DNA from: a virus
DNA: 64,000 nt
IMG/VR virus record: IMGVR_UViG_3300029893_000003
Location: 9,110-73,109 of that record
Strand: one strand, 5' to 3'
Part shown: positions 17,439 to 39,227 of the stretch, piece by piece
Position numbering within the stretch: the stretch's first letter is position 1
Layout: every line of letters starts with the position of its first letter
Notes under the pieces: generated by a model
Database searches by the model: none
What the model was told of the DNA's origin: nothing
Seen by the model: only the letters and a program-made list of their open reading frames with translations
Made by a program: the position numbers and the translations under genes

Positions 17439-18171
17439 GAACTTCTACCTTACTAAATGTATATGGGCTTTCTGCTTCATGATCTAAACAAACAACACAA
17501 TTTTCCGCCGAAGGATTTACGTTCCAATAAACGTAATAATTATCCTCATCTTCATCTACTTCCAACCAGCATTTGCACAACGATTTTCCAAGACAGTCGT
17601 CACCTGGGAGATAAGGCATCATAAAAGTAATATCGACAGGAATAGTGCCCGCTATAAACGGTGCTCTGGCATACCCATACAGAGAAGAACGCCACTGTAG
17701 ACGACCACTATAAATTACTCCGCTAGACAACGCCTCACGAATGTCTGCCTCAAATCCATCGAAGTATTCATATTCCCTCTCTAAACGCTGTTCTAAGATT
17801 TCCCTGTGCCGTTCAGTAAATTCCTCTCCTTGCAAACCCAACAGCATAAGATCAGAAAAATGGATACGCAGACGATCTCTAAACCGCTCCGAAAATTCCC
17901 TTATTGATAAGGCTCCCGACAAAACAGCGACCAGCAATTCCTGAAATTCTTGGGATGCCTCTTCACAAAGTTCTTCGTATTCCTGTTCGTCCCGCTCATC
18001 ATACTGCTTCTTTCCTTTACCAGCAGCATGTATGCACGCGAAAATAGCCTCTTCTTCAGACCCGCCATCTCTCAAAACCGCATTAGCGGCTCTGATACAA
18101 CGTTTCTTTTCTGAGACTGTCCAATTCTTAGCAACTTTTGGCACGTAATTGGGATAACGATAGGGACTCAT
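17422..18171 (-). CDS. Head morphogenesis/minor capsid protein with a ChaB/YdaT-like N-terminal domain
   Basis: N-terminal 'KNWTVSEKKRCIRAANAVLRDGGSEEEAIFAC'; C-terminal YWNVNPSAENCVVC and C..CKC, like Mu gpF-type proteins; follows the portal. Confidence 0.55.
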   Translation of the reverse strand: MSPYRYPNYVPKVAKNWTVSEKKRCIRAANAVLRDGGSEEEAIFACIHAAGKGKKQYDERDEQEYEELCEEASQEFQELLVAVLSGALSIREFSERFRDRLRIHFSDLMLLGLQGEEFTERHREILEQRLEREYEYFDGFEADIREALSSGVIYSGRLQWRSSLYGYARAPFIAGTIPVDITFMMPYLPGDDCLGKSLCKCWLEVDEDEDNYYVYWNVNPSAENCVVCLDHEAESPYTFSKVEVHGLTT

Positions 18172-20729
18172 TTCGTAACCAACTCACTTACTATCCTACG
18201 CGCTTCTTGTATGTCTTTAGCAGTTATTTTTTTGTAGCCCTTCCTCTCAGTATGAGAATCAATGCCACCAACAATCTGATCTGTTCCAAAGGTAATTTCA
18301 CTCGGCTGCTCCGTAGGCTGCGAAGATAAACGAGATTCGATCTCAGGTATCATCCATTCTGGTATATCACCTGACTCAACCGCCAACTGCCTTGCAGCAA
18401 TCGCATCAATCTCTCCACTACGAACTAACAAAGCACGTTCTTTAGCTCTAATAAATCTCGCCTCTGCCCGTTCCCTGTCAGACCGAATATCCTGTTCCTT
18501 AAACTCAAACCGAACATTATAAGGAAGATGAGAATTTATCTTATCTTCCAACATCGTCATAATCAGGGCAGGGCCTTTACCCCTCGTCTTGAGATGGAGA
18601 ATTTCAGACTGTCCAGATGATCCAAGATTACCGGACATGAGTGGGGCAAACTCTTGATAATCCACACCAAAAGCAAGCGCCAACTGTGCTATATACCATT
18701 TAAAGGTTGTGTCTTCGTTAAACGAATCTGGTAATGTTGCCAGATCAATGTGAACGTGACTGAGTGGGTGAGTAGGATCAACCCCAGGAATAATCACTGG
18801 TTGCGAAAAACGATATAAACCACGATTAAGGTTTTGTTCTTCTGCCAGCAACACCGCATCATCAATGTTTGATTTTGATACGCCACCGATAATATCAATG
18901 GCGCGAGTAAAGTTGCCGCCTACCTTTTCTTTCTTATAGATGGAAATGTCTCTAAGAATTTGGGCGGCGAGTAGGGCACGGGATGTAGCACAATATTGCA
19001 TGCCATACATTTCTTCGATGGGAGAAGGAAACTCTTCTAACGTTTCTACTCTCCACCAGGGCATTGCATGCTCTCTACCATAAAAGTCTCTATAAATAAC
19101 TGGATATTCTGGATCACCAGTTCGCCAACAACGTCCTGAGTCCAGGTGTGCAAAATTAATCACAGGAGAAGTAGGGTTATTATTATCAACCCTAATAATT
19201 TCCCAAAAGGCGCCATTATCCTGTGTGTTGTGAGAAACAAGATTTCCAGCAATAAAATTGCGAGTTTTGTCTACTCCAATATGATAGGTGGTTTCTACAA
19301 CCTTCCCGGTTGCTCCTATATAGTCTTTCTGTTCTATTTTTTCAATTTCATCAAAGTAGATTTTTGCAGGTTCCAACTCCCACACAGAAGGATTAAATGG
19401 TTTTGTGTGTTGTCCCATCTTATACTGCATAGACGGAATTATATATTCGCTGATATAGGACACCACTGCACGATAACCATCGGCAGTGAAACGAATCCTA
19501 TAATACTTGTCCTTTATCGGTTGCACCTTACAAGAAAAACCACGCGAGGTAAGTTCCTCAGCAAGCCATTCAACATCTTCTTTTTCAAATCCATCTGTGC
19601 ATAAAACAGCGTGTTCTGATTGATTGTTTGCTGTGGTAAGTGTTCTCTGGCACGCCCCGTCATCCATAAACCATATTGCAAGCATACGGGGAGAGAAGTA
19701 TTTCACAAAGTCTTCCCTATTAACTCGCTTCTTCCCGTCTGGATACCATCTATCAAACCAAGGAGATAGCCCCAAAGAAGCTAGCGAGTTTACTCCTATG
19801 ATGTGTGCTCCTTTTTCTGTGAGCCTAGAATTTTGCCCTGTCCAACCAAACTCTTTTAACAAAGACTTCTTAAATTCTAGATAATCAGACTGATCAACAG
19901 AGTGTCTAAAGCGGATAATTGCTCTCTTGGTAAAACGAGACATACTCATATCCCCAAGCAACCCGCCCACAAGTACCTCTGCCTGTTCTTCTGAAGGAAC
20001 AAGATCAGAAGTACCTATCTTATCAGTAGGTAGCAAGTCTTTAGCTTGTACCCAACCACGATCAGTTAGCATGGGATGATCTTCAGTTAAAAAGATTCCT
20101 CCTTGCTTTCCTCCATGACCATGATTAGTTGCTAGTTTAGTAGACAGGAAATACCATTTACGATTCCCTAGTGGCGTAGAATGCCATTCAGTAACCATCT
20201 GTTCTACCAAAGTTCCGTCAGAACCAACGCTAATCACAGGACCAGGATCACGATCCTTTACCATTCTTGCTATCGTCTTTGTTTTTCCTAGTCGATCCCC
20301 CCCTAGCTTAACTTTAGTATTACCAGCCAAGCAATAGAGGTCAATACAAGTTTTAAGAATTAAATCGTACCACCCCTTACCACGATTTGATCGCTGGATA
20401 ATCTCAGTAACCTTGTTAATTGTATTTTTAGGTCGCGGTTTAGTCTTGTCTGTGCCTTCAATATGCCACGCAAAACTGGCGTTACGAATTGAAACACCAT
20501 AAACCGCGCTTGCCAAAAGGGACTCTGTGTGCCAAAATTCCCGTAATTCCCTATCTCGTTTAACAGGATCTTTGCCCCAGGGCGTAATTGAATCGGCAGT
20601 TGTCGCCAGTTGTAAAATCAAGGGGCCAACACGCGGCGTCCTGTTATTAGGCGGCGTCTCAACAACAGAGTTTTCAAAAAGCTCTGGTAACAATTCTTTT
20701 TCTTCTACAAAATCACTACCGACTGCCAT
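18168..20729 (-). CDS. Portal protein interrupted by an intein
   Basis: Follows TerL; IDLY|TQDNGAFWEI, LDSGRCWRTG, ALAFGVDYQEF motifs. Confidence 0.8.
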   Translation of the reverse strand: MAVGSDFVEEKELLPELFENSVVETPPNNRTPRVGPLILQLATTADSITPWGKDPVKRDRELREFWHTESLLASAVYGVSIRNASFAWHIEGTDKTKPRPKNTINKVTEIIQRSNRGKGWYDLILKTCIDLYCLAGNTKVKLGGDRLGKTKTIARMVKDRDPGPVISVGSDGTLVEQMVTEWHSTPLGNRKWYFLSTKLATNHGHGGKQGGIFLTEDHPMLTDRGWVQAKDLLPTDKIGTSDLVPSEEQAEVLVGGLLGDMSMSRFTKRAIIRFRHSVDQSDYLEFKKSLLKEFGWTGQNSRLTEKGAHIIGVNSLASLGLSPWFDRWYPDGKKRVNREDFVKYFSPRMLAIWFMDDGACQRTLTTANNQSEHAVLCTDGFEKEDVEWLAEELTSRGFSCKVQPIKDKYYRIRFTADGYRAVVSYISEYIIPSMQYKMGQHTKPFNPSVWELEPAKIYFDEIEKIEQKDYIGATGKVVETTYHIGVDKTRNFIAGNLVSHNTQDNGAFWEIIRVDNNNPTSPVINFAHLDSGRCWRTGDPEYPVIYRDFYGREHAMPWWRVETLEEFPSPIEEMYGMQYCATSRALLAAQILRDISIYKKEKVGGNFTRAIDIIGGVSKSNIDDAVLLAEEQNLNRGLYRFSQPVIIPGVDPTHPLSHVHIDLATLPDSFNEDTTFKWYIAQLALAFGVDYQEFAPLMSGNLGSSGQSEILHLKTRGKGPALIMTMLEDKINSHLPYNVRFEFKEQDIRSDRERAEARFIRAKERALLVRSGEIDAIAARQLAVESGDIPEWMIPEIESRLSSQPTEQPSEITFGTDQIVGGIDSHTERKGYKKITAKDIQEARRIVSELVTK
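19227..20333 (-). mobile_element. Intein with LAGLIDADG endonuclease (369 aa) in the portal
   Basis: Starts CLAGNTKV, ends LVSHN followed by Thr+1; LVGGLLGD and WFMDDG motifs. Confidence 0.9.
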
Positions 20730-23469
20730 TTATGTATTTCTCCCCCAACTCAGGGAATTTCTGCCGGACTATTTGTGAGAAGGTTTCCAACTCAATTTCA
20801 CCCTTTGCTAACATCTGTAGTAAATCTTCCTTCTCAAATTCCCGATTGTCTAATTCCAATTCCATACATTTGTAAGCAGCCATCGACAAAGCAACTGCCG
20901 CGTCAATCTTGGCTTCTGGTGACAGCTTTTCTAGGCGTCTTTGCCGTCCCGAAATTACTGCCCCGGCTTGCCGAATATGCTGATATAGCGTATCTTCTTC
21001 TCTCCCAGGACCCCCCACATCCCCGATTGTAGTGGTTCGATTCCAAGTCAGTTGTCGGTGCATCACCATGTCATAAAGCTGTTTGTCAGCAATACCTCGC
21101 GCCGTATTTTGAGTGAAAGGATCGAACCAACCAAACCCATCCTTACGATAGTCTTGAACAAGTTTTGCCATCTGGTACGGATCATAAACCCAACATATAA
21201 CATTCCATCGGGAAGCCCATTCACGAATGGTATTACCAACTGTCTGTTCTTGGTCTATGTTACCACCTAACTTTTTAGGATTAAAAATCTTTACAGCCCG
21301 AACCGCAACACAAGTATCAGGGTTGATTGGATCGCGAGTTACAGCAACCATCGCCGCTAAGTCATTTGATACACTCATATCTATTGCAACCACAACAGGA
21401 GTCTTATCTCCCTGCTTAAGAACGGGCAAAGAAGGACTTTCACAATTATCCCACCATTGAGCCTCGATAAACGCACCCTTCGCACTCACCCAACGATTAC
21501 GATGGATACGTTCAAACTCCTCTGGTTCTAAGGTATTTTTCTGTTCTTCATAGTAATTAGTACCTAATTGCCAGGGCATCCGAGGTTCGGTGTCCCAATA
21601 CATAAACATACGAGAAGGCGCATGAGTATAAACCACTGGACCTTCTTCAGTATCAAGATAGGAAAAATCTGGATGGGGAGTTCCTTCTTTCTTTCCTGTG
21701 TTATAAAGAGATTCTAAAAGAATGGACACTCCGGTATATCCTGCATAGGATTCAACCCACTGCATTGCATATCCGTACAAAGTGGGCGGAACCGTAAGTT
21801 CTGTCCATAGCTGGCGTTTCTTAGGTGTATCAAATCCCCACAACTCACTGTTGCCCTGGATATGTACTTTTCCGTGTCGTCTAACTACTACAGTTTTGTT
21901 AGGTACTGTAGGACAGTGGATAATCCCTTCATAGTCTATCTTTTGCCAACGATCTTTTTTAATGTGAAGTATACGGCTCCCATCCCCCATTGGCTTAACA
22001 CTAACTGAATATAAAGGCCTTCCCCATCGCCTATCTTGATAGGTAGTTACTGTTACATATCTGCCCCGCCTAGCATAAATTTCTAACAAATCGTCTCGCA
22101 ATTTAGGAGAGTTTGTGCTATAAACAATATGCCCGTATTGAGTTACAGCATCACCAGTCTTGTATCCATCCCCACGCCAATAAGACTCTAATAACACGTC
22201 TAAATATTCATCTGGAAGTTCTTTAATCCATGCCGGTATATACTTTTCGTGTGCCAGCCCAAATTGCTTTAAATGTTTCGCTATACGAGTATCATAAAAC
22301 ACTAAAGCATCTGTACCCTTCCACACACGCGGAACATATCCGAGATCGGAGATTAGCGTTTTCAATTCTTCGTAATAAGGAGATACACTGCTCTGTGCTA
22401 ACAACACGGTATCGCCCTTATGGGTACATCCCTCAGACAAATACCACCCCAAAAACTTAAGGTACAGTTTTACAGGAATCTCAAGACTCGGCCTACGCTT
22501 AGTGCCTGGAATAGTCACAAATTCTGGTACATCTACTGGTTTCCTTTTTAGTCCCAAAGATTCTACTCGCATACCATACACCCCGGCTTCTATGGCGGAT
22601 TCTACGGAGCGCTTTTCAAATTGGGCTTTATTAAGGGCTATAGAACTAGAACCAAATTTACCATACAGCCTATGATTAGGAGACACGCACAAACTGTATC
22701 TGCTAGATTCTAATAGATACATAGGGCCTCCATACTGTGAGACATTTATATGAGTGGGATGTTGGTACTCTAGATACCCATCCGAACGTAAAGTTAAAAA
22801 CTGATCATCCATAGAATATTGATCATAGCGTTTCCACCCATCCCTAGTAAGTATCTCTGTGTCTTCGTCAAAACAAAAGACACTTAGCGTAGGTTCACCA
22901 CCAGCCTCACCTGCCGCGTCAACCGGAACAGCCTCAATCTTACAAAAATTAGGAAGGGTAACCTCGTATTCATACGGGTTTATATCCTTAAAGGGGCCTT
23001 GTTGCTGTCTATGGAGTCTATAATTTTGTTTTATAGGCGCATAGATACGGTCGTTCGCCTGTTTACCATCGTTTGCTACACACGCAATAAACCCATAAGG
23101 ACTATGATGAGCCACATAAGTAGCTACTGCCGCAGCAACCGCAGACTTTCCGCTTTTCTTTGGGGCACTATAAACTACCAAAGCATACTTAAATGTCCCA
23201 TCAGGATTCCGTGATAGGGCTTCATTAATCAAATGCTTTTGGTGATCGGTTAATTGAATCGGGCCAGCGGGAAGTATTTCGCCAGTCTTAGGGTTTCGAG
23301 GTCGAGGTACCCAAAAATATCGTTCAATCCAATCAGCCGGAAGAATTGCTTCCTGATTCTGTTCTTGCACTAAGTTGCGTGACAACTGCCGTAGTGCCTG
23401 ATCCAGCAGCGTCTTCGAGTCGCCTTGAGATGTAATCGACAACTGCTTCCCTAACGTGTGCATCATCAA
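20716..23469 (-). CDS. terL: Terminase large subunit interrupted by an intein (start uncertain, may be about 23400)
   Basis: QLTDHQ, Walker A APKKSGKS, SVF|SELWGF Walker-B region, nuclease AIDMSVSND and KIDAAVA. Confidence 0.85.
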   Translation of the reverse strand: MMMHTLGKQLSITSQGDSKTLLDQALRQLSRNLVQEQNQEAILPADWIERYFWVPRPRNPKTGEILPAGPIQLTDHQKHLINEALSRNPDGTFKYALVVYSAPKKSGKSAVAAAVATYVAHHSPYGFIACVANDGKQANDRIYAPIKQNYRLHRQQQGPFKDINPYEYEVTLPNFCKIEAVPVDAAGEAGGEPTLSVFCFDEDTEILTRDGWKRYDQYSMDDQFLTLRSDGYLEYQHPTHINVSQYGGPMYLLESSRYSLCVSPNHRLYGKFGSSSIALNKAQFEKRSVESAIEAGVYGMRVESLGLKRKPVDVPEFVTIPGTKRRPSLEIPVKLYLKFLGWYLSEGCTHKGDTVLLAQSSVSPYYEELKTLISDLGYVPRVWKGTDALVFYDTRIAKHLKQFGLAHEKYIPAWIKELPDEYLDVLLESYWRGDGYKTGDAVTQYGHIVYSTNSPKLRDDLLEIYARRGRYVTVTTYQDRRWGRPLYSVSVKPMGDGSRILHIKKDRWQKIDYEGIIHCPTVPNKTVVVRRHGKVHIQGNSELWGFDTPKKRQLWTELTVPPTLYGYAMQWVESYAGYTGVSILLESLYNTGKKEGTPHPDFSYLDTEEGPVVYTHAPSRMFMYWDTEPRMPWQLGTNYYEEQKNTLEPEEFERIHRNRWVSAKGAFIEAQWWDNCESPSLPVLKQGDKTPVVVAIDMSVSNDLAAMVAVTRDPINPDTCVAVRAVKIFNPKKLGGNIDQEQTVGNTIREWASRWNVICWVYDPYQMAKLVQDYRKDGFGWFDPFTQNTARGIADKQLYDMVMHRQLTWNRTTTIGDVGGPGREEDTLYQHIRQAGAVISGRQRRLEKLSPEAKIDAAVALSMAAYKCMELELDNREFEKEDLLQMLAKGEIELETFSQIVRQKFPELGEKYINGSR
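21850..22875 (-). mobile_element. Intein with LAGLIDADG-like endonuclease (342 aa) in TerL
   Basis: Starts CFDEDTEIL, ends HIQGN followed by Ser+1; FLGWYLSEG and YWRGDG motifs. Confidence 0.85.
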
Positions 23470-26442: not shown

Positions 26443-27681
26443 GTGACTGCTCCCCACGGCTAAAGCCGGGGGCTTCTAGGACCGGAGTCCAGGCTCGCCA
26501 GCCCGCGAGCCAAAATGTTCAGAGATGCATTGAGATCGCGGTCCAGTTTCAGGCCGCAGTAAGGACAGTCGTGGACACGCACACTCAAGTCTTTCGGAAC
26601 CACCGCGCCGCAGCCGGAGCATTCTTGCGTTGTGCCTCTGGGGTTAACGCGCAGCACAGCACGACCGGCACTTTCAGCCTTGTACGTGGTGAACTGCACG
26701 AACTGGCCCCAGGCCACGTCCGCGATATTCCGGTTGACAACCCGGTTTCCGTTGGACTGCATGTCCGCGATGTCCAACTTCTCAAAGACGATCAGGCCGA
26801 AGCGGTTGACGAGCTTGCGGCTCTCCTGGTGCGCGAAGTCGGCGCGCCGGTTGGTGGCGCGCTGGTAGGCATGGTTGAGCGCGCGCAGCACCTTGCGGCG
26901 CTCCGGCGAGCCTTTAGCGAACTGTTCTTTCTTGCGCTGCAAGCGGGCGATGTCCGCCGCATCGCGTTTCATCCAGCACTGGCGCGGGATACTGTCGCCG
27001 GTACTCAGCATGGCGAACGTCTTCAGGCCGAGATCCACGCCCACCACTTCAGGCGACGGGGGCAGAGGCGCGGCGTCTACTTCGCACGAAAAGCAGGCGT
27101 ACCAGTTGCCTACGCTATCGCGCCGGATGATGACTGTTTTGGGTGTGCCTTCCAGGGGGCGATGCAGCTTGATTTTCACGGCTCCGATTTTCGAGAGCGT
27201 GAGCCGGTTACCGTCCAACTTCACCCCATTACCACACTGCGGATAGGTGAAACTGTCGTACCAGCCACGTCCCTTGAAGCGCGGGTAGCCGGGCTTCTCA
27301 CCTGCCTTGACGCGGCGAAAGAATGCCTGGAACGCCAGATCGACGCGTGTGCACGCTTCTTGAAGCGACTGCGAAAAGGCGTTATTGAGAAATGGCTGCT
27401 CGGCTTTCCAGCCGGGGATCAGCTTAATCGTATCGAAGCGCGTCAGCGTTTCGCGGTTAATGTCCCAGGCATCGCGGCGCACTTCAAGCGTCGTGTTGTA
27501 AACCCACCGACAAGCATCCAATGCGCGCAGCAAGGCGGTGCGTTGGGCAGAAGTAGGAAAGAGGCGGTACTTGTAGGTCAATCGCATAGCCCGATTATAC
27601 CATTTATGCTACAGGTTCACAAACATATGGCGCACCTTATATCCCCCTGCCTTCAGGCAGAGGTTTTACGGCGCTTTTCCG
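26443..27681 (-). mobile_element. IS200/IS605-family (IS1341-type, tnpB-only) element 1
   Basis: LE hairpin CCTCTGCCTGAAGGCAGGGGG after TTTAT; RE GAAGCCCCCGGCTTTAGCCGTGGGGAGCAGTCAC; higher GC than flanks; no tnpA. Confidence 0.85.
26460..27587 (-). CDS. tnpB: RNA-guided endonuclease TnpB
   Basis: YKYRLFPT HTH, VGVDLGLK RuvC-I, VFEKL, TTQECSGCG zinc finger, DRDLNASLNI. Confidence 0.95.
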   Translation of the reverse strand: MRLTYKYRLFPTSAQRTALLRALDACRWVYNTTLEVRRDAWDINRETLTRFDTIKLIPGWKAEQPFLNNAFSQSLQEACTRVDLAFQAFFRRVKAGEKPGYPRFKGRGWYDSFTYPQCGNGVKLDGNRLTLSKIGAVKIKLHRPLEGTPKTVIIRRDSVGNWYACFSCEVDAAPLPPSPEVVGVDLGLKTFAMLSTGDSIPRQCWMKRDAADIARLQRKKEQFAKGSPERRKVLRALNHAYQRATNRRADFAHQESRKLVNRFGLIVFEKLDIADMQSNGNRVVNRNIADVAWGQFVQFTTYKAESAGRAVLRVNPRGTTQECSGCGAVVPKDLSVRVHDCPYCGLKLDRDLNASLNILARGLASLDSGPRSPRL

Positions 27682-30957: not shown

Positions 30958-31188
30958 ATGAGCGATAAAACTGTTGCAGTATCAGACGTTTTCAATCCCG
31001 ATGCGATTCTATTTGCAGCAGAAAAGGGAAGCTCAGATTGCCAACGGCTTGATGAGAATTGCGAATATCTTGGAACTTTTGATGGGTGTCGTTATTATAA
31101 AAACTCGCCAGCCAAAAGTAAGATTCCTGATCGATGGGAAATCTTTTCTAAGTGGAAAGAGAGTATTTTAAAGAACAAAGATGGCTAA
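30958..31188 (+). CDS. Hypothetical protein
   Basis: GGAG RBS. Confidence 0.55.
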   Translation: MSDKTVAVSDVFNPDAILFAAEKGSSDCQRLDENCEYLGTFDGCRYYKNSPAKSKIPDRWEIFSKWKESILKNKDG

Positions 31189-31402
31189 TCAAGCAGGAGA
31201 ACGAAGTTCTAGTACTTGGGTGTTTGTTTGTAGTGCGCCAGATGCTTATGCCGCGTTGTGGGAATTTATGGATGATAAAATTAAACGAGAACTAATCTCA
31301 AACGGCCCTATTCCCTGTGAAGGAACCTTGAAAACAGGACCGCATTGTATGGATTGCAGGTTTGGTACGGGAGAGTTGATCGATGAAGACTTTTTTGATT
31401 AG
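31181..31402 (+). CDS. Hypothetical protein
   Basis: Coupled ORF. Confidence 0.55.
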   Translation: MANQAGERSSSTWVFVCSAPDAYAALWEFMDDKIKRELISNGPIPCEGTLKTGPHCMDCRFGTGELIDEDFFD

Positions 31403-31505
31403 CTGGATTAAAAAGCGGATTCCTCTGTGGTTAGCCCTTTGGGGATATGAAAAAGTAAATCAAGAGGGATACTGGTACATCAAAGAGCAACAGCTAAGGA
31501 AACAG

Positions 31506-31859
31506 CTATAACCAGCATTTAGGTAGAAATATGAGTAAGGGCTTTCCGGCTTTGGCTGAGAGGCAGATCGTATGGTAGGTTCCTTTGGACTCACCGTCCC
31601 AAAAGGCCACTATACGATCTGCCTCATTCACTATGTCATTATTCCGTCTCATTCCTGCTGAACGCCCATACTTCTTCCAATCAGCAGGGAAAATCTTAGT
31701 TTCTAGTCCTCGCATCTTTGCTAGTTGTTCTGCCGCCCGATCTACCCCTATAGCTCCGCCGCTGATAACTACGGTTTCTTCATCCAAAGTGTCAATGAAG
31801 TTTTTAATTTTTAGTAAGTCTTTCCAATTTCTTGACCCTACTATTGCAATTTTATCCAT
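31506..31859 (-). CDS. SLOG superfamily protein (DUF2493/YspA-like)
   Basis: IAIVGSR, VISGGAIGVD, ADWKKYGRSAGMRRN, AFWDGESKGT. Confidence 0.85.
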   Translation of the reverse strand: MDKIAIVGSRNWKDLLKIKNFIDTLDEETVVISGGAIGVDRAAEQLAKMRGLETKIFPADWKKYGRSAGMRRNNDIVNEADRIVAFWDGESKGTYHTICLSAKAGKPLLIFLPKCWL

Positions 31860-32070
31860 TGTCGATCAAACTAATGAGATAATAAGTAGAGGACGCTATC
31901 ACAATAATCATTCCTAATACAGCTAGAAGATACGGAAAGAACACAATAGAGGCTGCTATTACAACAGGCACAACTACAAACCACGTAGATATTGCCCCTA
32001 GCAGCTTAACCTTATCAAACTCCCACGCATCAGCAATCCAATCTAAAAGCCGTTCTATTTTATCTAGCAT
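31852..32070 (-). CDS. Small membrane protein
   Basis: Two TM segments. Confidence 0.55.
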   Translation of the reverse strand: MLDKIERLLDWIADAWEFDKVKLLGAISTWFVVVPVVIAASIVFFPYLLAVLGMIIVIASSTYYLISLIDNG

Positions 32071-32116
32071 GTTAAATGTACTCCGTCTCTAACATATACC
32101 AGAACGCCACCAATCG

Positions 32117-32509
32117 TCACTCGATTTTCGCGTCAATGCCCCAGGCCTGCGCAATTTGCAGCAAGATTTCTGCTGCTGTGTCCCTGTGGCAGAACTTGCC
32201 CCGGCTGCAATAGCACGCCAGCGTCACGACGCCTTTGCCTTGCAGCCAATTACGTAACTCAGGCGCGTACTGCTTCCAGCGCGCCCGCAATAATTGTTTG
32301 TATGCTGCGACGTACTGTTCGTCGTCAATCGCCGCGTACTTCAGCGTCCACGACGGCGGTTGCTCGCCAGCCCTCTCCGCCGCCCAGCGCTTGTGCCCCC
32401 CGACGATTTCCCAGCTGGGCGCAAAGAAGCGCCCAATGCCTGTGCTCGATTTTACGGTCGTGTCAATTACTTCGGGTTCGCCAATTCTCCCTGTGCGTAT
32501 AATTAGCAT
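32117..32509 (-). CDS. DUF488-like protein
   Basis: FFAPSWEIV...Y..LL..R...VTLACYC....CHR; high GC relative to flanks. Confidence 0.5.
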   Translation of the reverse strand: MLIIRTGRIGEPEVIDTTVKSSTGIGRFFAPSWEIVGGHKRWAAERAGEQPPSWTLKYAAIDDEQYVAAYKQLLRARWKQYAPELRNWLQGKGVVTLACYCSRGKFCHRDTAAEILLQIAQAWGIDAKIE

Positions 32510-32980
32510 GCGCCTGCTCCTTTCGTAACCCGCGATGACACCGAGCGCGTTGCGGTGTAAAAAGAGAGTAGAAAAGCAAGCACTAGATTACGCATATCAA
32601 TAAGGAATTGTAGTCCTACATAAACCAAAGTAATAGCCATATATCCCCCATAAATAAGAAGAAATCAGAAACTATTCGAAAGATTAATCAGCATATCCCA
32701 ACTTAATTAACAAAAAAGCAAGGGCATATATAATCCCAAAAGCAGTCAAAAGCTCTAGCATAATGAGAGGAAAGCAAATAAACAAAACAATAAGACACAG
32801 AATACCGCCCACAAAGCAAGATACAAGAAGGGCCGAAAGAAAGTCGTTGTCTAACATCACACTCTCCTTTCTTACAAGTATACATTACAAGAGAAATAAA
32901 GTCAATAGACGATACAAGAGGGCCTACTAAGAAAAAGATAAGGGGTACATAAAAGAAAAGAGAGGAACGATATGGGTGGA

Positions 32981-33785
32981 TTAGTTAAGTTTAAGAGAAA
33001 AAAAAATAATTTAATGTACTTTACGTAATTTAACATATTTATGTTTGTAAAATTTTCCTACGGGGGTGAATCCTAAATCAAGCATGTTTTGATGTGTGAG
33101 ATTTACCTTACCCCGTTTACGGGTTTGGGAGATTCCATTTTTAGTATAAATCCATGTGGGTGTGGTTTTTCCTACGTAAGTCCAGCCTGAGCTTTTATAA
33201 ACTTCTCCGGTATGTCCTTGCCATGTGTCCGCATACGTAACAAGACATTTCCACCTTGTATCTAACATTTTTATAGATTTACTCAGCATAAAGGACGCAG
33301 AGTTTTTAGGGGCAGAAGGAATCAAAACCATTCGTGAAAGAGAGAGAACACGATTAGGTTCTTCATAAGTAGCCTCTGCCGCACGCCGAGTAGGGGGCAA
33401 CCACCAAGTTACTCCAAACAAAACATCAAACTCTTTATGAAACAATCCAAAACAAGCAACACACAGTTTACTAACACTTCTGGTATAGTGATGTTGAACT
33501 ATAAGAGTTCTTCCTAATGAGGGATCAATAGGACGTACTTCCCAGGACTCTTTATGTAAGGGGCCTACAGGCAACATATTTTTCTCCTTTAAAATTTCCA
33601 AGTAAATTTCTGAATATTTGGACTTTCTAGGTTCTGGTATATCTTCCTTGTTAATAATGGTAATCATTGTTTTTTTTTTCTACAGAAACGATATTTATCA
33701 ATATAGCACAGTACAATAAGAATGTCAATAATCAGGCGGTTTAAGTATGACTGAGGGTTAGTTAAGTTTAAGAGAAAAATAATTT
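32981..33785. repeat. Direct repeat TTAGTTAAGTTTAAGAGAAAAA(n)TAATTT flanking the mom-like gene
   Basis: Copies at 32981-33012 and 33758-33785. Confidence 0.8.
33011..33667 (-). CDS. Mom-like DNA adenine modification enzyme (GNAT fold)
   Basis: VQHHYT, LSLSRMVL, APKNSASFMLSKS, VTYADTWQGHTGEVYKSSGWTYVG; resembles Mu Mom family. Confidence 0.8.
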   Translation of the reverse strand: MITIINKEDIPEPRKSKYSEIYLEILKEKNMLPVGPLHKESWEVRPIDPSLGRTLIVQHHYTRSVSKLCVACFGLFHKEFDVLFGVTWWLPPTRRAAEATYEEPNRVLSLSRMVLIPSAPKNSASFMLSKSIKMLDTRWKCLVTYADTWQGHTGEVYKSSGWTYVGKTTPTWIYTKNGISQTRKRGKVNLTHQNMLDLGFTPVGKFYKHKYVKLRKVH

Positions 33786-34023
33786 CAAAAAAATTTTTTG
33801 TATAAAAATTGTCCAGCGCGCACATCACCGCCGCGAAACCGAACGCGGCTGGCGGGTTCGTTAGCTATTAGCACTAAGACTACAGTTACCATAATATGCC
33901 GTGTTCAGTTTAGAGTTAACTAAGAGTACAGACACCGTTATACTACCTCTTAAAAACCTATCCACACGTTCCCTAGAATCATAATTTTAGGAAGTGCTAA
34001 CCGGGAGATGGAATTTAGGAACA

Positions 34024-34262
34024 CCTAAAATAAAAATTAGGCAGACCAAAATAAAAATTAGGCAGACCTAAAATAAAACTTAGGATAATCTTATAACTAA
34101 TTTTGGTCTGATCCAATCAGAAGCTTTCGGCGCGCCGAATTGTCGCAAGTCTGTTTAATGCTCTATTTTCTTATTTTCTGCCATATTCCCTAACTTGATT
34201 TTTAGGTTTGCCTAATCCTCTTATTGGCTATTCCCTCATTTGATTCTTAGGTTTGCCTAATC
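34024..34262. repeat. Symmetric repeat array around a 14-bp palindrome (candidate origin or genome-end/packaging site)
   Basis: ATTAGGCAGACC at 34036 and 34057; TTCGGCGCGCCGAA at 34126-34139; inverted near-copies TAGGTTTGCCTAAT ending 34216 and 34261. Confidence 0.6.
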
Positions 34263-34593
34263 TTTAATACCTTATTATATTGCCAGTCTTTGGATAGTTC
34301 ACATGTGAACAGTATACATATACTCTATATCTCTATAAGGTTTAATTGGTTTAGATATAAACGATCTTATCGCGCTTTGGCGTTACAATCTGGCTATTAT
34401 CACGAGTCTTTATTTTCGAGAATAGGTTACGCTTTAACGCGGATAAAATCCTATTATCGATCCTGTGTTTTAACATTCGCAATTTTTGGGAATGGAGCAA
34501 ATTAGAATGTTAAAAAAGTTTGAATCTGCTAACCTTTGAGGGAAAAACGAATGTTAAAATGGTTTGAATCTGGTTAGAATATCTGTAAGATAC

Positions 34594-34623
34594 TTGAACA
34601 CCTAGCTAAATCTGTGATAGGAT
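34594..34623 (+). promoter_or_regulatory. Sigma70-like promoter driving the large ncRNA and early region
   Basis: TTGAAC-18-TAGGAT with extended -10 TG. Confidence 0.55.
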
Positions 34624-34629
34624 GTAAGC

Positions 34630-35318
34630 GCAATTGAGCAAGCGCACATTAAAAATAGCGCCGGCGCGAAAGTCTGGGGCGATGCAGGAAGCGCCAAGAG
34701 ATGAGCTTACCCTCAGGCGAGTAGCAATGACGCAATACGCATACGCAACCTTCGGGGGGCTTTCGTCTAGCCAACGAAAGCTGAGCCGTACGGGGGCTGT
34801 AGGAAACTAGTAGACTCGTCCAACCTGAGATCGCACGAGTCTAGAGTAAATCCTAATGGTTGGGGGCCGGGCGGCCCCTCGCTACTAACTGGATCCCATT
34901 AGCCTTACTCTACTAGCCAAGTGAGCAGATAGCCATATCTGTTATGTCACGCTTGGCTAGCCTAGTTTCCGGCGGCGCAAGCGATTAGAGACCTCTCTAA
35001 TACGCACGCGCACCTATAGCACGGCAAACCAAGCGCTGAAAACCTGTTAGGTCGATGAAAGCATACTACACTAGCCAATAGCAGAAGTCTAGACAAACAG
35101 CCTAGAATCGGCGGGATCGAAAGTAGCCTAATCAATGGCTAGCCTAGCCGATAGTGCATACTGGTGAAAGCGATGACAATGCTAGCTAGTGCAAGTGCCT
35201 AAACGCTGACAGTGATTAATCTAAGTGCGATGCTAAGCCTGGCTATAGTTGTTTTGCTTGTTTTCCCCAACACTCCTCGCAGATAAACCGTACCGCACGA
35301 TATTAGATGATCAATTGC
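34630..35318 (+). ncRNA. Candidate large ornate structured RNA (about 690 nt; ROOL/GOLLD-scale, class unassigned)
   Basis: No ORF of 60 aa or more; terminal helix GCAATTGA/TCAATTGC; nested helices GGAAACTAG/CTAGTTTCC, TAGACTCGT/ACGAGTCTA, CTAGCCAAG/CTTGGCTAG, ATTAGAGA/TCTCTAAT; GAAA tetraloop-like motifs; candidate pseudoknots. Confidence 0.65.
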
Positions 35319-35577
35319 TTAACTCCCGGCGGCTAGGTTATAGGCTATCCTATACCCCAGTCTAAGGGACCAAGTTAGGCATGAGAGACTCTATTATCTG
35401 GTATAGTCGACTCTGTTAGGTTATGCTAGGCCAAAGCTTAGCTGATCCGCTATAGTGGGATAGCACACTAGGATTAGTTAGGCTAGGCTAGTATCTCCCA
35501 TATCTTATAGTGCCGATAAAATAGGTTATCGGCACTTAGGCTATAGGAGACCATAACCATACAAAGGAGAAAGGGCG

Positions 35578-35817
35578 ATGAAGCTACAGAAGGTACAGAA
35601 GCTACTGACGGGCGAGTACCGGGAATTGTACGGGGGGCATGGTGTGTGGTGGGTATCCGTGAGGTGGGAAGAGGGGCGGCTCATCAGTGAGTGGTGGGCA
35701 GACGGATTACCGGCGGTGAGCAGACCGGTGACTAAGGCTGAGGGCGCGGATGATGTGGAGAGGATAATTCGGTCGGTGTGCGCAGACTTCCGCAAGGTGC
35801 GGGGTCTGGCTTGGTAG
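35578..35817 (+). CDS. Early hypothetical protein
   Basis: GGAG RBS. Confidence 0.6.
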   Translation: MKLQKVQKLLTGEYRELYGGHGVWWVSVRWEEGRLISEWWADGLPAVSRPVTKAEGADDVERIIRSVCADFRKVRGLAW

Positions 35818-35842
35818 ATAGATTAGCATACAGGAGATCAAA

Positions 35843-36100
35843 ATGGCACACTATTTGGTCGGTACGAATACCCGCGGGTATTTGCCCGTGGGCGATCCCA
35901 TCGAATGCGAGACATTGATCGAAGCTAAGCAAGCAGCACGACAGGAAGCCCTTTACTTGGCTGAAGAGACCAATAATAAGATCGAAGTTTGGTCATCTCT
36001 CAACAGTATCACCAAGCGCGATCTTGTGAACTATGGTGTACCGATTACTTACGCGGTAATCGGAGACATCGAAGTTTGGATCGCCATTGAGTCGGATTAG
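35843..36100 (+). CDS. Early hypothetical protein
   Basis: AGGAG RBS. Confidence 0.7.
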   Translation: MAHYLVGTNTRGYLPVGDPIECETLIEAKQAARQEALYLAEETNNKIEVWSSLNSITKRDLVNYGVPITYAVIGDIEVWIAIESD

Positions 36101-36178
36101 GGCAGTTAAGGCGTACAAGCGATCTTGTACGCCTTATAGTGTTCTAATCCCATAAGGGATCAAATAGGAGACTATGCT

Positions 36179-36508
36179 ATGAAACTCACGAATGAAGTAG
36201 CGGTATACGTCCCATCTACGCTTGGCGAGTCTAACGCCGATCCGGCGCTGATCTCACGTATCGTTGATCAGGCATTGACCGATCTTAGTGTCGTCAATGG
36301 CGGCGCTACTGTGACTAATGGGATCGGCGCATGGCTATCTCATGACGGTAAGCTCGTAAAGGAGTCTGTGACTATCGTTTCCAGTAATTGCGAGACGATC
36401 ACATTACAGACTCTTAGAACACTCGCAAAATTGCGAAAGACTATACGCGAATCGATGAAACAAGAAGCCGTTACTGTAAGGGTTAACGGTGTTCTCTATA
36501 TCCGATGA
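36179..36508 (+). CDS. Early hypothetical protein (DUF3574-like fold, tentative)
   Basis: GGATVTNGIGAW...LVKESVTIV...MKQEAV. Confidence 0.65.
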   Translation: MKLTNEVAVYVPSTLGESNADPALISRIVDQALTDLSVVNGGATVTNGIGAWLSHDGKLVKESVTIVSSNCETITLQTLRTLAKLRKTIRESMKQEAVTVRVNGVLYIR

Positions 36509-36584
36509 GACTAGCTAGTAGCCATAATGGGAATTATGGCTACAATGGTAGCCTTATCAATCATAGCCAATAGGAGAATCTACA

Positions 36585-36995
36585 ATGTTCCGTATGATCG
36601 ATGGATTAGATGACGTCCCAACGGGGGAGTATGCTTGGCAATATTTTAAGTATACGCCTGAATCGGCACCGATCCAATCGCAATATTGGATCGATCCATG
36701 GGGGAATGTCTACCCCGTTGATTGGCACTACGCGTCAGCACCAGAATTGATCATTCGGCACTTCGGCAAAGATAAGCTTGACTCACTTCGTGATGAAAAT
36801 GGATACTGGAAAATCACCCCGGTTGATTTTCTTGAAAATAATCGATGGCTCCACGTATCCTATATTGGCGTTTTTGGTGACTACACTCAACGAGGGTATG
36901 AGGCACTAAAAACATTGCACCAAAGGATGTCTGAAGCGAACGGTAGCGGCCGCGTACGGGATACTCTGAGGCATATTGCGGTGTATGTTACGTAA
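36585..36995 (+). CDS. Early hypothetical protein
   Basis: ATAGGAGAATCTACAATG start context. Confidence 0.7.
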   Translation: MFRMIDGLDDVPTGEYAWQYFKYTPESAPIQSQYWIDPWGNVYPVDWHYASAPELIIRHFGKDKLDSLRDENGYWKITPVDFLENNRWLHVSYIGVFGDYTQRGYEALKTLHQRMSEANGSGRVRDTLRHIAVYVT

Positions 36996-37066
36996 GTTAA
37001 GGACAGTTTCAATGCCCTACACTGTAGGGCATTGGCTAGTGTCTTTAACCTATAGGAGAATCTACA

Positions 37067-37432
37067 ATGACACGGCATGAAACGGGGGCGTACGGGGAAC
37101 AAATTGTACAGACTCTTACCGCTGGCAGGTTTGGTAAGCTAGGACGTGATTCGGATATTGTCCTGGCTAACGGCACTCAGATCGAAGTTAAGACCGCACG
37201 TAAAGGTAAAGATGGAAAATATCGGGCGCGATTGTACAAGCCCGGTAGCCAAGATCATCGAAAGTCTGATTTTGTCGTGTTTGTCCTGTTAGATGACGGG
37301 GTATACTTTTACGTGATCCCTACAGATGACATTAGAGATCGCGTGCAATTGACCATTACGAGCCATCCTAACACCTATAACGGCAAATATGCACAATACA
37401 GACAGGAGAGTCTGGCATGGTTAGCGCATTGA
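37067..37432 (+). CDS. PD-(D/E)xK nuclease-fold protein
   Basis: GAYGEQIV...SDIV...QIEVKT...DFVVFV. Confidence 0.65.
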   Translation: MTRHETGAYGEQIVQTLTAGRFGKLGRDSDIVLANGTQIEVKTARKGKDGKYRARLYKPGSQDHRKSDFVVFVLLDDGVYFYVIPTDDIRDRVQLTITSHPNTYNGKYAQYRQESLAWLAH

Positions 37433-37728
37433 TCATCAGCGTATCCCTGATCGTGGTGGTGAGTCTATTGCGGCGCATTAGACTCACTAATTATACTCTC
37501 GAACAATCTGAATCCGAACGACAACGTGCCTTAGTCCGCCTGGAAGAGTATCATCACGATCTCAAATTACTGTCATGTTTGACAGTCGAAGAGTCTGGTC
37601 AAGTGTCGTTTTTGGCACTTGTGCCAGATGATACCGCTACCATAAGGTTCAACGAATACGTGATCGACTACAAATCGCTACTGGAATTTGAACGCGGCGA
37701 TAGTGACTATATCACAGTCTATAACTAA
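37417..37728 (+). CDS. Membrane-anchored hypothetical protein
   Basis: N-terminal TM helix. Confidence 0.55.
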   Translation: MVSALIISVSLIVVVSLLRRIRLTNYTLEQSESERQRALVRLEEYHHDLKLLSCLTVEESGQVSFLALVPDDTATIRFNEYVIDYKSLLEFERGDSDYITVYN

Positions 37729-37819
37729 ATTGTAGATCAGTCTCACACACACAAGATCGCTTGTGTGTGTTGGCTGGCATACAATTTATAGGATATGCCA
37801 TAGCATAGGAGACAAAATC

Positions 37820-38386
37820 ATGAAGATATTAGAATTTCTTTATCGCTTGGATCGCATTTTCCCTAATGCCTACTTTAGTTTTGCTCCTGGCTGCAAGGAG
37901 CCGGGCTATGATGACAAACCAGTTATCATGGCGGATTGGAATAAAGTCCCAAAACACGTTTTTGACAAGTTAGAATCTCTTGGCTATGCCTGCGAATGGT
38001 TGGATGAATGGGCTACATGTGCTGAATGCAATAAAGCCGTTCGAACGAGTCCTAATTCGTATGACTGGACTTCAGCGTATGTTATCCAAGACGGTGATCT
38101 CTTGTGTCTAGATTGTGTCGATGCACAGGCGTACTACGAATCCATCGAAAATCGTTCTGATGTTGCTGCTAGTAATGAATTCGCCCACCATTACAAGCCG
38201 GAAGATTACGGCTATGTTAAAGTGAATGAAGATCATTACATTAATGGCCTTCACGGTATCGTAGATGATCCAAAGCAGATTCTAGGTGATCTTTTGAGCG
38301 ACGATCCTGAAGGACGATTCGTTTTTACACTGGACTATACGTCACAATTCGAAGTCGGGTTCAGTGTATACCGCAAAGTCGTTTAA
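37820..38386 (+). CDS. Hypothetical protein with CxxC motifs
   Basis: Start MKILEF after AGGAG; CAEC and CLDC. Confidence 0.7.
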   Translation: MKILEFLYRLDRIFPNAYFSFAPGCKEPGYDDKPVIMADWNKVPKHVFDKLESLGYACEWLDEWATCAECNKAVRTSPNSYDWTSAYVIQDGDLLCLDCVDAQAYYESIENRSDVAASNEFAHHYKPEDYGYVKVNEDHYINGLHGIVDDPKQILGDLLSDDPEGRFVFTLDYTSQFEVGFSVYRKVV

Positions 38387-38461
38387 TTAGTGTTTACTAC
38401 TTAGTGTATACTTAAATTTATTTTTCTTTGAATGTGTTCTGCTAAATCATAGGAGCGTATC

Positions 38462-38695
38462 ATGCTTAACATTTTCCGCCGTAAAAACAAATCAGTAACT
38501 AATAAGCCGATCTTTAAGGCGTCATTTGACACTACTGGCGTAATCACCTTACGCCACAATGGCGTAGTAGTTTGTCAAGGTGATATTCACGTCTTTAATC
38601 AATTCTTACGTGCCAATAAAATCCCGCGCGACCGCATCATCTGGGGCGAATATGACTCAATTAAAGAGTCATATTGGAAAAGTCGATACAATTGA
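38462..38695 (+). CDS. Hypothetical protein
   Basis: AGGAG RBS. Confidence 0.65.
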   Translation: MLNIFRRKNKSVTNKPIFKASFDTTGVITLRHNGVVVCQGDIHVFNQFLRANKIPRDRIIWGEYDSIKESYWKSRYN

Positions 38696-38927
38696 ACTAA
38701 TTAGAACACACAAACGTACCAGTGTAGCGATGCTTTGGGTGAGATTCCTATGCTACACTCCTGCCTTTCAGAGCGGCAGGGTATAGGTATCTGGTTTGTG
38801 TGTTTTGATTAGGCCCATCCTTATTGATAAGGAGTAGTAAGCTCATAATACTTAATTATACTTATATTTAATTTTTACTAGGGCATAGCGTAGCCTTTAC
38901 GCTAATAATCATATAAAGGAGAATACA

Positions 38928-39227
38928 ATGAATAACGAAGGCTTCAAGGGTGATAAACTTACCTATCCAGAAGGCACGACTCTTTGGGTACTGTGTAATG
39001 ACTCGTTTATGTCTGGATGGGGAAGGGCTGGGGGCGTTATTAATACCCTTATTTTCCCCTGCAAAGACCTAGCACAAGCGAACATTGTAGCCGATAATGC
39101 GAGACGCAGAGGCGATCAGAAATACGTGAGGATCGTAAGTCGCGCGCCCCGCCTGCGCGGCGGGCATTACTACCAAGTTAAAACCATTGACGAGTACCCT
39201 ATGTGGTACAAGTACGGGGCGTTTTAG
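38928..39227 (+). CDS. Hypothetical protein
   Basis: AAGGAG RBS. Confidence 0.7.
   Translation: MNNEGFKGDKLTYPEGTTLWVLCNDSFMSGWGRAGGVINTLIFPCKDLAQANIVADNARRRGDQKYVRIVSRAPRLRGGHYYQVKTIDEYPMWYKYGAF

What the first reader, a model, noticed from the sequence alone, without database searches (positions are those of the whole stretch)
34630..35318. Ornate non-coding RNA of about 690 nt at the head of the early region
Seen: an ORF-free stretch starting about 6 nt after a promoter, closed by a terminal helix (34630-34637 with 35311-35318). It contains nested multibranch helices (34802-34810/34962-34970; 34811-34819/34835-34843; 34913-34921/34952-34960), GNRA-like GAAA motifs, and loop-loop complementarities CTCAGG(34712)/CCTGAG(34824) and GTACGG(34788)/CCGTAC(35288). 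Established: giant phage-associated RNAs (GOLLD, ROOL) are of this size and architecture. Inference: this is a member of one of those classes or a new class. Further hairpins to about 35500 may extend it.
Basis: partly seen in the sequence, partly recalled or inferred. Interest (0 to 1): 0.85.

Follow-up and report, generated by a model that had tools for sequence, protein, structure and literature searches.

The report
New large modular phage leader RNA
The gene-free stretch at the start of this phage's early genes encodes a large, intricately folded, non-coding RNA of a family not yet catalogued, conserved and seen in RNA libraries from sludge and compost, whose job is still unknown.

Summary
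The core observation holds. Window 34628-35509 (+) is ORF-free and encodes a structured RNA. It is longer than reported (about 880 nt, not 690).

Homologs were fetched through flanking proteins: L023, L004, L026, L033 and L029. They show a conserved block at about 34400-35509 containing:
- a promoter/operator region;
- a modular RNA, in order: 5' hairpin, optional domain V1, P2, a four-way junction (34802-34970), a near-invariant hairpin S3 (34975-35011), domain D4, a U-rich tract, and optional domain D5.

Evidence for structure:
- Compensatory base-pair changes are enriched over slid-partner controls.
- Pairs are kept on the + strand and broken on the - strand.
- One arm is swapped for an unrelated hairpin.
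- A second "type B" core has a different sequence but the same architecture.

RNA-library contigs from activated sludge and compost cover only this block. Their k-mer depth is far above that of neighbouring phage genes.

There is no Rfam match, so it is not GOLLD, ROOL, OLE, HEARO or raiA.

Function is unknown. The best reading is a stable leader-derived RNA of the early operon, acting either in trans on the host or as an early-transcription regulator.

The parts
34468..34559 (.). Operator-like repeats CGAATGTTAAAA: one inverted copy (34468-79) and two direct copies (34504-15, 34548-59). They lie inside the conserved upstream block that begins near 34400.
   Evidence: the repeat finder D8, I16, I22. 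Conserved in L023, L004, L026 and L033.
34594..34623 (+). Early promoter: TTGAAC, 18 nt, extended -10 TGn-TAGGAT. The predicted start is about 34628-34630. A second weaker upstream candidate is TTGAAT-16-TAAGAT (34565-92).
   Evidence: Read from the sequence. Conserved in homologs; L033 has TTGAAA-17-TATTCT at the same position. Not listed by the consensus scan.
34628..34652 (+). S1: 5' terminal hairpin (GCGC...GCGC) plus an A-rich linker. Present in all homologs.
   Evidence: Alignments; alifold.
34653..34733 (+). V1: optional peripheral domain with helices 34672-79/34711-18 and 34689-92/34705-08. Absent in L026. In sludge and soil contigs it is replaced by a 14-nt filler.
   Evidence: Joint 34652>34741. 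Alignment. The G-C > G-U > A-U series is read from the alignment, on the 34672-79/34711-18 helix predicted.
34747..34798 (+). P2 domain: outer helix 34747-54/34791-98 enclosing hairpin 34758-66/34774-82 (loop CUAGCCA).
   Evidence: Three compensatory double changes in L004 within the hairpin.
34802..34970 (+). Four-way junction. The closing helix is GGAAACUAG/CUAGUUUCC. Arm H1 (34811-43) is swappable. Arm H2 (34842-34912) is itself branched. Arm H3 is 34913-60.
   Evidence: alifold and helix tables. H2 is 69/69 and H3 48/48 identical in L023. Zero differences in sludge and compost contigs. z = -5.4. The type B equivalent has 7 double changes, 6 single changes and 1 broken pair.
34975..35011 (+). 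S3: long hairpin, GCGC-AA-GCG-AUUAGAGA-loop-UCUCUAAU-A-CGC..GCGC. It is the element best conserved between type A and type B cores.
   Evidence: Alignment; alifold. The window is shorter by matched indels on the two strands, which preserves pairing.
35014..35248 (+). D4: about 235-nt branched domain closed by CUAUAGC..GGC/GCC..GCUAUAG. 86% identical to L023.
   Evidence: alifold with 4 double changes. Type B has an analogous domain closed by CCCUAG/CUAGGG. Its own z is about 0.
35249..35268 (+). U-rich tract UUGUUUUGCUUGUUUUCC directly after the D4 closing helix. It may be a leaky terminator or a protein-binding tail. In L033 the RNA ends here.
   Evidence: Alignment. In the RNA run, contig depth drops from 257 to 47 across this point (a hint only).
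35275..35494 (+). D5: optional 3' module of two long hairpin domains (35275-35420 and 35423-35494). Present in L023, L026, L029 and a soil contig; absent in L033.
   Evidence: alifold with 5 double changes. z = -4.3 on +, -0.7 on -. 94% identical to L023.
35496..35548 (+). Long imperfect hairpin that ends the conserved block. Its 3' strand carries UAUAGGAG. Similar hairpins precede each early gene. Relatives recombine exactly at 35509.
   Evidence: Folds. Joints 35509>35921 and 35509>37748. Alignments.

Best explanation
Window 34628-35509 (+) is the gene for a previously uncatalogued family of large, modular, highly structured non-coding RNA. The minimal form in relatives is about 560-640 nt; here it is about 880 nt because the optional modules V1 and D5 are both present.

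It is the first thing transcribed from the regulated early promoter. Because there is no canonical terminator before the first ORF, it forms the 5' leader of the early operon transcript.

Its conserved heart is a four-way junction followed by the S3 hairpin and a closed domain D4. Peripheral modules are gained, lost or swapped between phages.

Inference, not shown:
- The RNA is released as a stable species, either by cleavage at the RNase III-type hairpin at 35496-35548 or by partial termination at the U-rich tract (35249-68).
- It accumulates well above the early mRNAs.
- It then acts mainly in trans, most plausibly by binding a host or phage protein through the invariant H2/H3 arms and S3.

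My odds: real, expressed, structured RNA of a new family, about 0.8. Within that, trans-acting host-directed role about 0.4, regulator of phage early transcription about 0.35, other about 0.25.
For: **Non-coding**

**Conservation above neighbours**
- 0-2 differences over 172-178 nt of the core in sludge and soil contigs whose flanking coding DNA differs by 8-14%.
- 88% identity to L023 across the block, against 79-85% for the genes.
- H2 and H3 are 100% identical to L023.

**Structure**
- The fold was predicted from one sequence only, then tested on the others. Double compensatory changes were 7/35, 10/50 and 5/32 of changed pairs, against 2/72, 5/89 and 1/70 with slid partners (Fisher p = 0.005, 0.02, 0.01).
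- Type B four-way junction plus S3: 7 double changes, 6 single, 1 broken. Slid controls gave 1 double and 22 broken.
- Hairpin H1 is replaced by an unrelated hairpin at the same junction position.
- Matched indels on the two strands keep S3 paired.
- Two sequence-divergent cores share the same helix order.

**Strand**
- The reverse strand breaks many more pairs. For the type B junction it is 10 broken against 2 kept.
- D5 z is -4.3 on + and -0.7 on -.

**Expression**
- RNA-library contigs of two studies cover only 34771-35473, at depth 14-737. Other phage pieces in the same run have depth 2-9, and the DNA run is flat at about 10.
- RNA libraries of at least six studies hold 20% or more of the core's words.

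**Self-contained module**
Sequence upstream of about 34400 and downstream of 35509 differs between relatives.

**Leader status**
No + strand terminator and no second promoter were found before the ORF at 35578.
Against: - Only five homologs, two of them partial, so no per-pair covariation statistic such as R-scape is possible.
- The most conserved arms (H2, H3) never vary within type A, so they give no covariation evidence.
- V1 and D4 fold no better than shuffles. The whole reader span has z of only -1.8.
- Over the full-length type B alignment, the single-sequence test shows no enrichment of double changes.
- Expression evidence comes from assembled contigs of runs chosen because they hold this stretch. 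It gives no 5' or 3' ends, no strand and no reliable level.
- Near-identity of the core across habitats could reflect recent horizontal spread rather than selection.
- The promoter is weak by consensus (8/12).
- The host is unknown. No binding partner or target has been identified, so the functional part is inference only.
Confidence: 0.75

Rival explanations
1. The RNA works mainly on the phage's own early transcription. Two versions are possible.
- P4-style RNA immunity or attenuation: a stable leader-derived RNA keeps downstream early genes silent in carrier or lysogenic cells.
- A put/EAR-like processive antiterminator: it lets RNA polymerase read through the strong hairpins that separate the early genes.
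For: - It sits directly after the early promoter, as P4 CI and HK022 put do (established knowledge).
- No terminator or promoter separates it from the operon.
- Strong hairpins precede every early gene.
- In community RNA contigs the leader is seen and the downstream genes are not, which fits leader-high, operon-low expression.
- Repeated complementary CUAGCCAA/UUGGCUAG motifs lie inside the leader.
- The 3' tail pairs with the UAUAGGAG motif.
Against: - Known cis antiterminators and immunity RNAs are 65-120 nt. Nothing explains a 600-880 nt multi-domain fold.
- Downstream genes and their order differ between relatives, while the RNA core is invariant.
- L033 lacks D5 and the anti-RBS tail.
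- No integrase or repressor was identified in the window.
Confidence: 0.3
2. The conservation acts on DNA, not RNA. The block would be an origin of replication, packaging site or array of protein-binding sites, and the palindromic CTAG-rich repeats would be recognition sequences.
For: - CTAG density is 20 per kb here against 3.5 per kb window-wide.
- An AT-rich iteron region lies just upstream.
- Many short direct and inverted repeats are present.
Against: - Compensatory changes preserve pairing. G-U-tolerant changes are kept on the + strand only.
- Strand-asymmetric folding energy in D5.
- A hairpin is swapped with its position retained.
- RNA-library contigs are restricted to this block at high depth.
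- The CTAG excess is what the local trinucleotide content predicts.
Confidence: 0.05
3. It is a divergent member of a known large RNA class (GOLLD, ROOL, OLE, HEARO or raiA) that the covariance models miss.
For: - Similar size.
- Phage location.
Against: - No hit to any of 4227 Rfam models at E<=10 in the window region, or at E<=1 in four homologous loci.
- No adjacent tRNA genes.
Confidence: 0.03
4. It is an unremarkable long intergenic spacer or 5' UTR. The predicted helices are chance, and the similarity between phages is recent common descent.
For: - The whole-span z-score is only -1.8.
- Few homologs are available.
- Several helices are invariant.
Against: - It is more conserved than the flanking genes.
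- Double compensatory changes are enriched over controls.
- Domain z-scores reach -5.4.
- A divergent type B core has the same architecture.
- It is seen in RNA libraries.
Confidence: 0.03

Closest known systems
ROOL and GOLLD RNAs (Rfam RF03087, RF01998; cryo-EM in PMC12286853)
   Same: - Large (about 580-800 nt), multi-junction, phage or prophage-borne non-coding RNAs of unknown function.
- Found by comparative analysis of metagenomes.
- Modular, with variable peripheral domains.
   Different: - No covariance-model match.
- Not next to tRNA genes.
- Placed as the leader of the early operon, directly behind a regulated promoter.
- Oligomerisation is untested.
OLE RNA (RF01071)
   Same: About 600 nt, with highly conserved nucleotides in a complex fold, and abundant in cells.
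   Different: - OLE is a chromosomal RNA of anaerobic or extremophilic Bacillota, with partner proteins OapA/B/C.
- There is no model match and no such genes here.
Phage T7 early transcript with RNase III processing hairpins
   Same: A polycistronic early operon in which each cistron is preceded by a long imperfect hairpin. This would allow the leader to be cut out as a discrete RNA.
   Different: - T7 has no large structured leader RNA.
- Cleavage here is inferred from hairpin shape only.
Satellite phage P4 CI immunity RNA; HK022 put RNA
   Same: Functional RNA encoded in the leader immediately downstream of the early promoter. It acts on transcription of the operon that follows.
   Different: - Those RNAs are 65-70 nt with one or two hairpins; this one has more than 25 helices.
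- No target repeats or terminators were demonstrated.
Candidate structured RNAs of the IMG/VR-wide screen (PMC10690425)
   Same: Same discovery logic: conserved intergenic regions of phage contigs with covariation.
   Different: - That screen reported motifs of 29-151 nt and required at least three IMG/VR regions.
- This RNA is 560-880 nt and has no other IMG/VR copy.

Membership tests
GOLLD RNA (RF01998) | Significant match to the family covariance model | tested here: not met
   cmscan found nothing at the gathering threshold, at E<=10 on 33900-35700, or at E<=1 on L023, L026, L033 and L004.
GOLLD RNA (RF01998) | Frequent adjacency to tRNA genes in phage or prophage DNA | tested here: not met
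   The only tRNA in the window is at 55819-55891, 20 kb away.
GOLLD / ROOL | Homo-oligomeric RNA-only cage (PMC12286853) | not testable with these tools
   Needs in vitro transcription with SEC-MALS or cryo-EM.
ROOL RNA (RF03087) | Significant match to the family covariance model | tested here: not met
OLE (RF01071), HEARO (RF02033), raiA (RF03072) | Significant match to the family covariance model | tested here: not met
   There is also no IscB or Oap gene next to it.
Structured non-coding RNA (generic) | No conserved ORF; substitutions not codon-periodic; indels tolerated | tested here: met
Structured non-coding RNA (generic) | Compensatory base-pair changes above control, on one strand | tested here: met
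   The sample is small (2-4 sequences per region).
Structured non-coding RNA (generic) | Discrete transcript with defined ends | tested here: inconclusive
   RNA-library contigs cover only 34771-35473, and the core is held by RNA runs of at least six studies. Contigs give no ends or strand.
RNase III-processed polycistronic early transcript (T7 type) | Long imperfect hairpins between cistrons | tested here: met
   Five stable inter-cistronic hairpins were folded: three with z between -7.5 and -5.7, and weaker ones at 35496-35577 (-3.6) and 36505-36586 (-2.6). The short 37725-37765 stretch is not stable (-0.9).
RNase III-processed polycistronic early transcript (T7 type) | Cleavage at those hairpins | not testable with these tools
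   Needs 5'/3' end mapping in an infected host.
P4 CI-type leader immunity RNA | Leader RNA complementary to repeated target sites that cause premature termination | not tested
   Repeated CUAGCCAA/UUGGCUAG motifs exist, but they are used in local helices. No terminator was found.

The most novel reading that the evidence does not exclude
This is a new class of large, modular phage RNA, comparable in size and complexity to OLE, ROOL and GOLLD. It would be the dominant phage transcript in environmental communities and would act in trans, for example as a decoy or sponge for a host defence or RNA-handling protein, or as a self-assembling RNA particle. Exchangeable modules (V1, H1, D5, core type A or B) would tune it to different hosts.
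Probability: 0.35. Interest if true: 0.9.

Novelty: new variant of a known kind. Interest (0 to 1): 0.78.

Why it matters
Only about a dozen classes of large (over 500 nt) structured bacterial or phage RNAs are known. Each has proved to be either a ribozyme, a ribonucleoprotein core or an unexpected RNA-only assembly.

A further class would be a strong candidate for a new RNA-based mechanism of host takeover or phage gene control. This one sits at the very start of a phage early operon. It has an invariant core, swappable peripheral domains and apparent high abundance in wastewater and compost metatranscriptomes.

It is directly testable. The RNA can be transcribed in vitro for structure work. 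Public RNA-seq runs that contain it already exist.

Tried and rejected
**Database and collection searches**
- Rfam at gathering and permissive thresholds, on the window and on the homologs: nothing relevant.
- blastn of the region against GenBank phages: no match. The capsid-region protein also has no GenBank phage relative.
- IMG/VR by flanking proteins: only one unrelated GC-rich Mom-gene locus, L003.
- IMG/VR by three exact DNA patterns from the core, D5 and S3: none, except L035, which is a chance 18-mer.
- GTDB genome contigs with two patterns: none.
- JGI metagenome contigs: one hit, L004.
- The scan's own notes by sequence and by place: nothing new.
- Literature searches found no description of such an RNA.

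**Coding alternatives**
- Alternative genetic codes (TAG=Q, code 4) give no ORF.
- The minus-strand 57-58 aa frames are not conserved.

**Distant relatives**
- nhmmer and blastn against distant relatives (L006-L022, 45-55% protein identity) found no homolog.
- They do have an ORF-poor gap at the same position.

- The terminal helix and both loop-loop pairings were rejected on the homologs.

**Not counted as evidence**
They are not used as evidence of habitat or expression.
- Parts of the stretch without contig cover in RNA runs, such as 34628-34770, are not taken as absence.

**Not attempted**
- No covariance model was built.

Full report
**Context**

The window is part of an 82-kb IMG/VR virus record. 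It has no close relative in GenBank phages. Late and structural genes run leftwards to about 33667, ending in a Mom-like gene. A long series of small early genes runs rightwards from 35578.

Between them lie 1.9 kb without a credible ORF. The left part, 33668-34400, is AT-rich with iterons. The right part, 34630-35560, has about 50% G+C against 33-36% just upstream.

**Is it coding or a known RNA?**

- No frame is open for more than 66 codons. Reading TAG or TGA as sense does not open one.
- The minus-strand 57-58 aa frames of the window and of its best homolog do not align.
- Substitutions against that homolog are spread evenly over codon positions, with 23 gap columns.
- Rfam 15 finds only a tRNA 20 kb away. 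At E<=10 it finds nothing meaningful in 33900-35700. The same holds for four homologous loci at E<=1.

It is therefore not GOLLD, ROOL, OLE, HEARO or raiA.

**Relatives**

Flanking proteins and exact DNA patterns found nothing in IMG/VR or in GTDB genomes. An index of public runs, however, showed that about half of the stretch's 31-mers occur in activated-sludge, soil and compost runs, including RNA libraries.

Laying the contigs of four runs on 31000-39000 showed three things.

1. DNA contigs of relatives match 34741-34918 with 0-2 differences. Their flanking non-coding DNA differs by about 8%, and their early genes by 10-14%.
2. In two relatives, 34653-34740 is replaced by 14 nt.
3. Relatives diverge or recombine exactly at 35509 (joints to 35921 and to 37748).

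I then fetched longer contigs through homologs of three early proteins (look-ups). That gave five informative loci:

| Locus | Coverage | Notes |
|---|---|---|
| L023 | full | 88% identity |
| L004 | 5' half | from the single JGI pattern hit |
| L026 | full | |
| L033 | lacks the 3' module | |
| L029 | last 117 nt | |

Sources.

**Anatomy**

Similarity between all relatives begins near 34400 and stops at 35509. Outside these points the sequence depends on the relative.

The first 230 nt hold three copies of CGAATGTTAAAA (two direct, one inverted) and the promoter TTGAAC-18-TGnTAGGAT (34594-34623). L033 has TTGAAA-17-TATTCT at the same place.

The RNA then consists of these parts:

| Module | Coordinates | Description |
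|---|---|---|
| S1 | 34628-52 | 5' hairpin |
| V1 | 34653-34733 | optional; absent in L026 and in the sludge and soil contigs |
| P2 | 34747-98 | |
| Four-way junction | 34802-34970 | closing helix plus arms H1, H2, H3 |
| S3 | 34975-35011 | hairpin |
| D4 | 35014-35248 | closed by a 10-bp helix |
| U-rich tract | 35249-68 | |
| D5 | 35275-35494 | optional; absent in L033 |
| Terminal hairpin | 35496-35548 | long imperfect hairpin |

Sources.

L026 and L033 carry a "type B" core. Its sequence is largely unalignable to the window's "type A" between S1 and S3 and within D4. It still has the same order of elements: a hairpin domain, a closing helix with three arms, S3, a closed D4 and a tail.

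S3 is the part best conserved between the two types. Modules reassort:

| Locus | V1 | Core | D5 |
|---|---|---|---|
| Window | + | A | + |
| L026 | - | B | + |
| L033 | + | B | - |
| Sludge and soil contigs | - | A | not determined |

L023, L004 and a compost contig carry type A with a different H1 hairpin.

**Is the structure real?**

The fold was predicted from one sequence only and then scored on the others. The control slides each 3' partner by 1-3 columns.

| Region | Double compensatory changes / changed pairs | Slid-partner control | Fisher p |
|---|---|---|---|
| 34630-35275 | 7/35 | 2/72 | 0.005 |
| 5' half, three sequences | 10/50 | 5/89 | 0.02 |
| D5 | 5/32 | 1/70 | 0.01 |

Sources.

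For the type B junction plus S3, predicted from L026 alone, L033 has 7 double changes, 6 single changes and 1 broken pair. The slid controls give 1 double change and 22 broken pairs. On the reverse strand the result is 2 kept and 10 broken.

Individual cases:
- three double changes in hairpin 34758-82;
- A-U to U-A in the junction's closing helix;
- matched indels on the two strands of S3, which preserve pairing;
- a G-C > G-U > A-U series in V1;
- wholesale replacement of H1 by another hairpin.

Folding energies:
- 34741-35012: z = -5.4.
- D5: -4.3 on the + strand, -0.7 on the - strand.
- V1 and D4: not better than shuffles.

**Weak points**

Homologs are few. H2 and H3 are invariant within type A. 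The full-length type B alignment shows no enrichment in the unbiased test.

The three nested helices stand.

The terminal helix (34630-37 with 35311-18) rests on the palindrome CAATTG. In L026 both copies become CAATCG, which gives two A.C mismatches. L023 adds a mismatch, and L033 has no 3' arm. In the alignment fold, 35316-23 pairs locally within D5.

CTCAGG/CCTGAG and GTACGG/CCGTAC are not maintained.

**Expression**

In the activated-sludge RNA run, contigs cover 34771-34915 (depth 737), 34982-35238 (106-152) and 35240-35473 (14-48). The only other phage pieces in that run have depth 2-9. The DNA run of the same study is flat at about 10.

In the compost RNA run, only 34841-35431 is covered.

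RNA libraries of at least six studies hold 20% or more of the core's words.

These are assembled contigs from runs chosen for holding this stretch. They show presence in RNA libraries and hint at high abundance. They give no ends and no strand.

**How it probably works**

Shown:
- a conserved, structured + strand RNA module behind a conserved promoter;
- no canonical terminator and no second promoter before the first gene;
- long imperfect hairpins before each early gene.

Inferred:
- The RNA is the leader of the early transcript.
- It is released at the terminal hairpin, which resembles the RNase III sites of the T7 early region, and/or by leaky termination at the U-tract. In L033 the RNA ends at that tract, and RNA contig depth falls across it.
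- It accumulates as a stable species.

Because the flanks and peripheral modules are exchangeable while H2, H3 and S3 are nearly fixed, I favour a trans-acting RNA that binds a protein partner. The main rival is a regulator of the phage's own early transcription, either P4-like immunity or antitermination. That fits the position and the leader-high, operon-low pattern, but not the size.

A DNA-level role is unlikely, given the strand-specific compensation.

**Novelty**

No catalogued family matches. The largest phage-wide screen reported motifs of only 29-151 nt. The nearest kind is the small group of large ornate RNAs (ROOL, GOLLD, OLE). It differs from them in sequence, genomic placement and modular reassortment.

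Noticed in passing
window 33970-34270: AT-rich region with three direct 21-22-nt repeats (AAATTAGGCAGACCTAAAATAAAA, 34012-34084) and two inverted copies (34184-34262). It is shared at 81% with L026 but not with L023 or L004. It may be an origin or a regulator-binding array.
   Followed up: partly
window 35496-35548, 36098-36146, 36505-36557, 36992-37053; L023 1324-1380; L033 1150-1213: Each early gene is preceded by a long imperfect hairpin next to a UAUAGGAGA ribosome-binding motif. The z-scores are -2.6 to -7.5. Gene order in relatives changes exactly at these hairpins, so they may act both as RNase III-type processing sites and as recombination joints.
   Followed up: partly
L006 8757-9554, L009 300-1138, L016 6798-7923: More distant relatives (45-55% protein identity) have a 0.6-1.1 kb ORF-poor gap at the same divergent junction, unrelated in sequence. 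L006 and L009 are 78% identical there, with 12 double-changed predicted pairs. These may be analogous leader RNAs.
   Followed up: partly
window 26460-27587 (-): A 375-aa protein matches a PHROG transposase family (phrog_506, E = 5e-97). It sits among late genes and is probably an IS200/IS605-type TnpB. Any associated guide RNA was not examined.
   Followed up: no
window 5512-7572 (-), 18168-20729 (-), 20716-23469 (-): Homing-endonuclease or intein signals interrupt several genes. The nucleotide-sugar dehydratase matches both an intein-splicing domain and a LAGLIDADG domain. The 853-aa protein matches a LAGLIDADG homing endonuclease. The 917-aa protein matches terminase only at residues 642-882, so an insertion there is inferred, not shown.
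   Followed up: no
window 54186-55793 (+): A Ro60 ortholog is confirmed (TROVE plus the Ro60 vWA domain). It sits next to the tRNA at 55819-55891. The phage therefore carries several RNA-centred functions besides the leader RNA.
   Followed up: partly
window 34630-35509: CTAG occurs 18 times (20 per kb, against 3.5 per kb in the window). Many helices are built from CUAGCC/GGCUAG units. The hairpin loop CUAGCCA (34768-74) is complementary to UGGCUAG at 35135-41, which could be a long-range contact. This could not be tested.
   Followed up: partly
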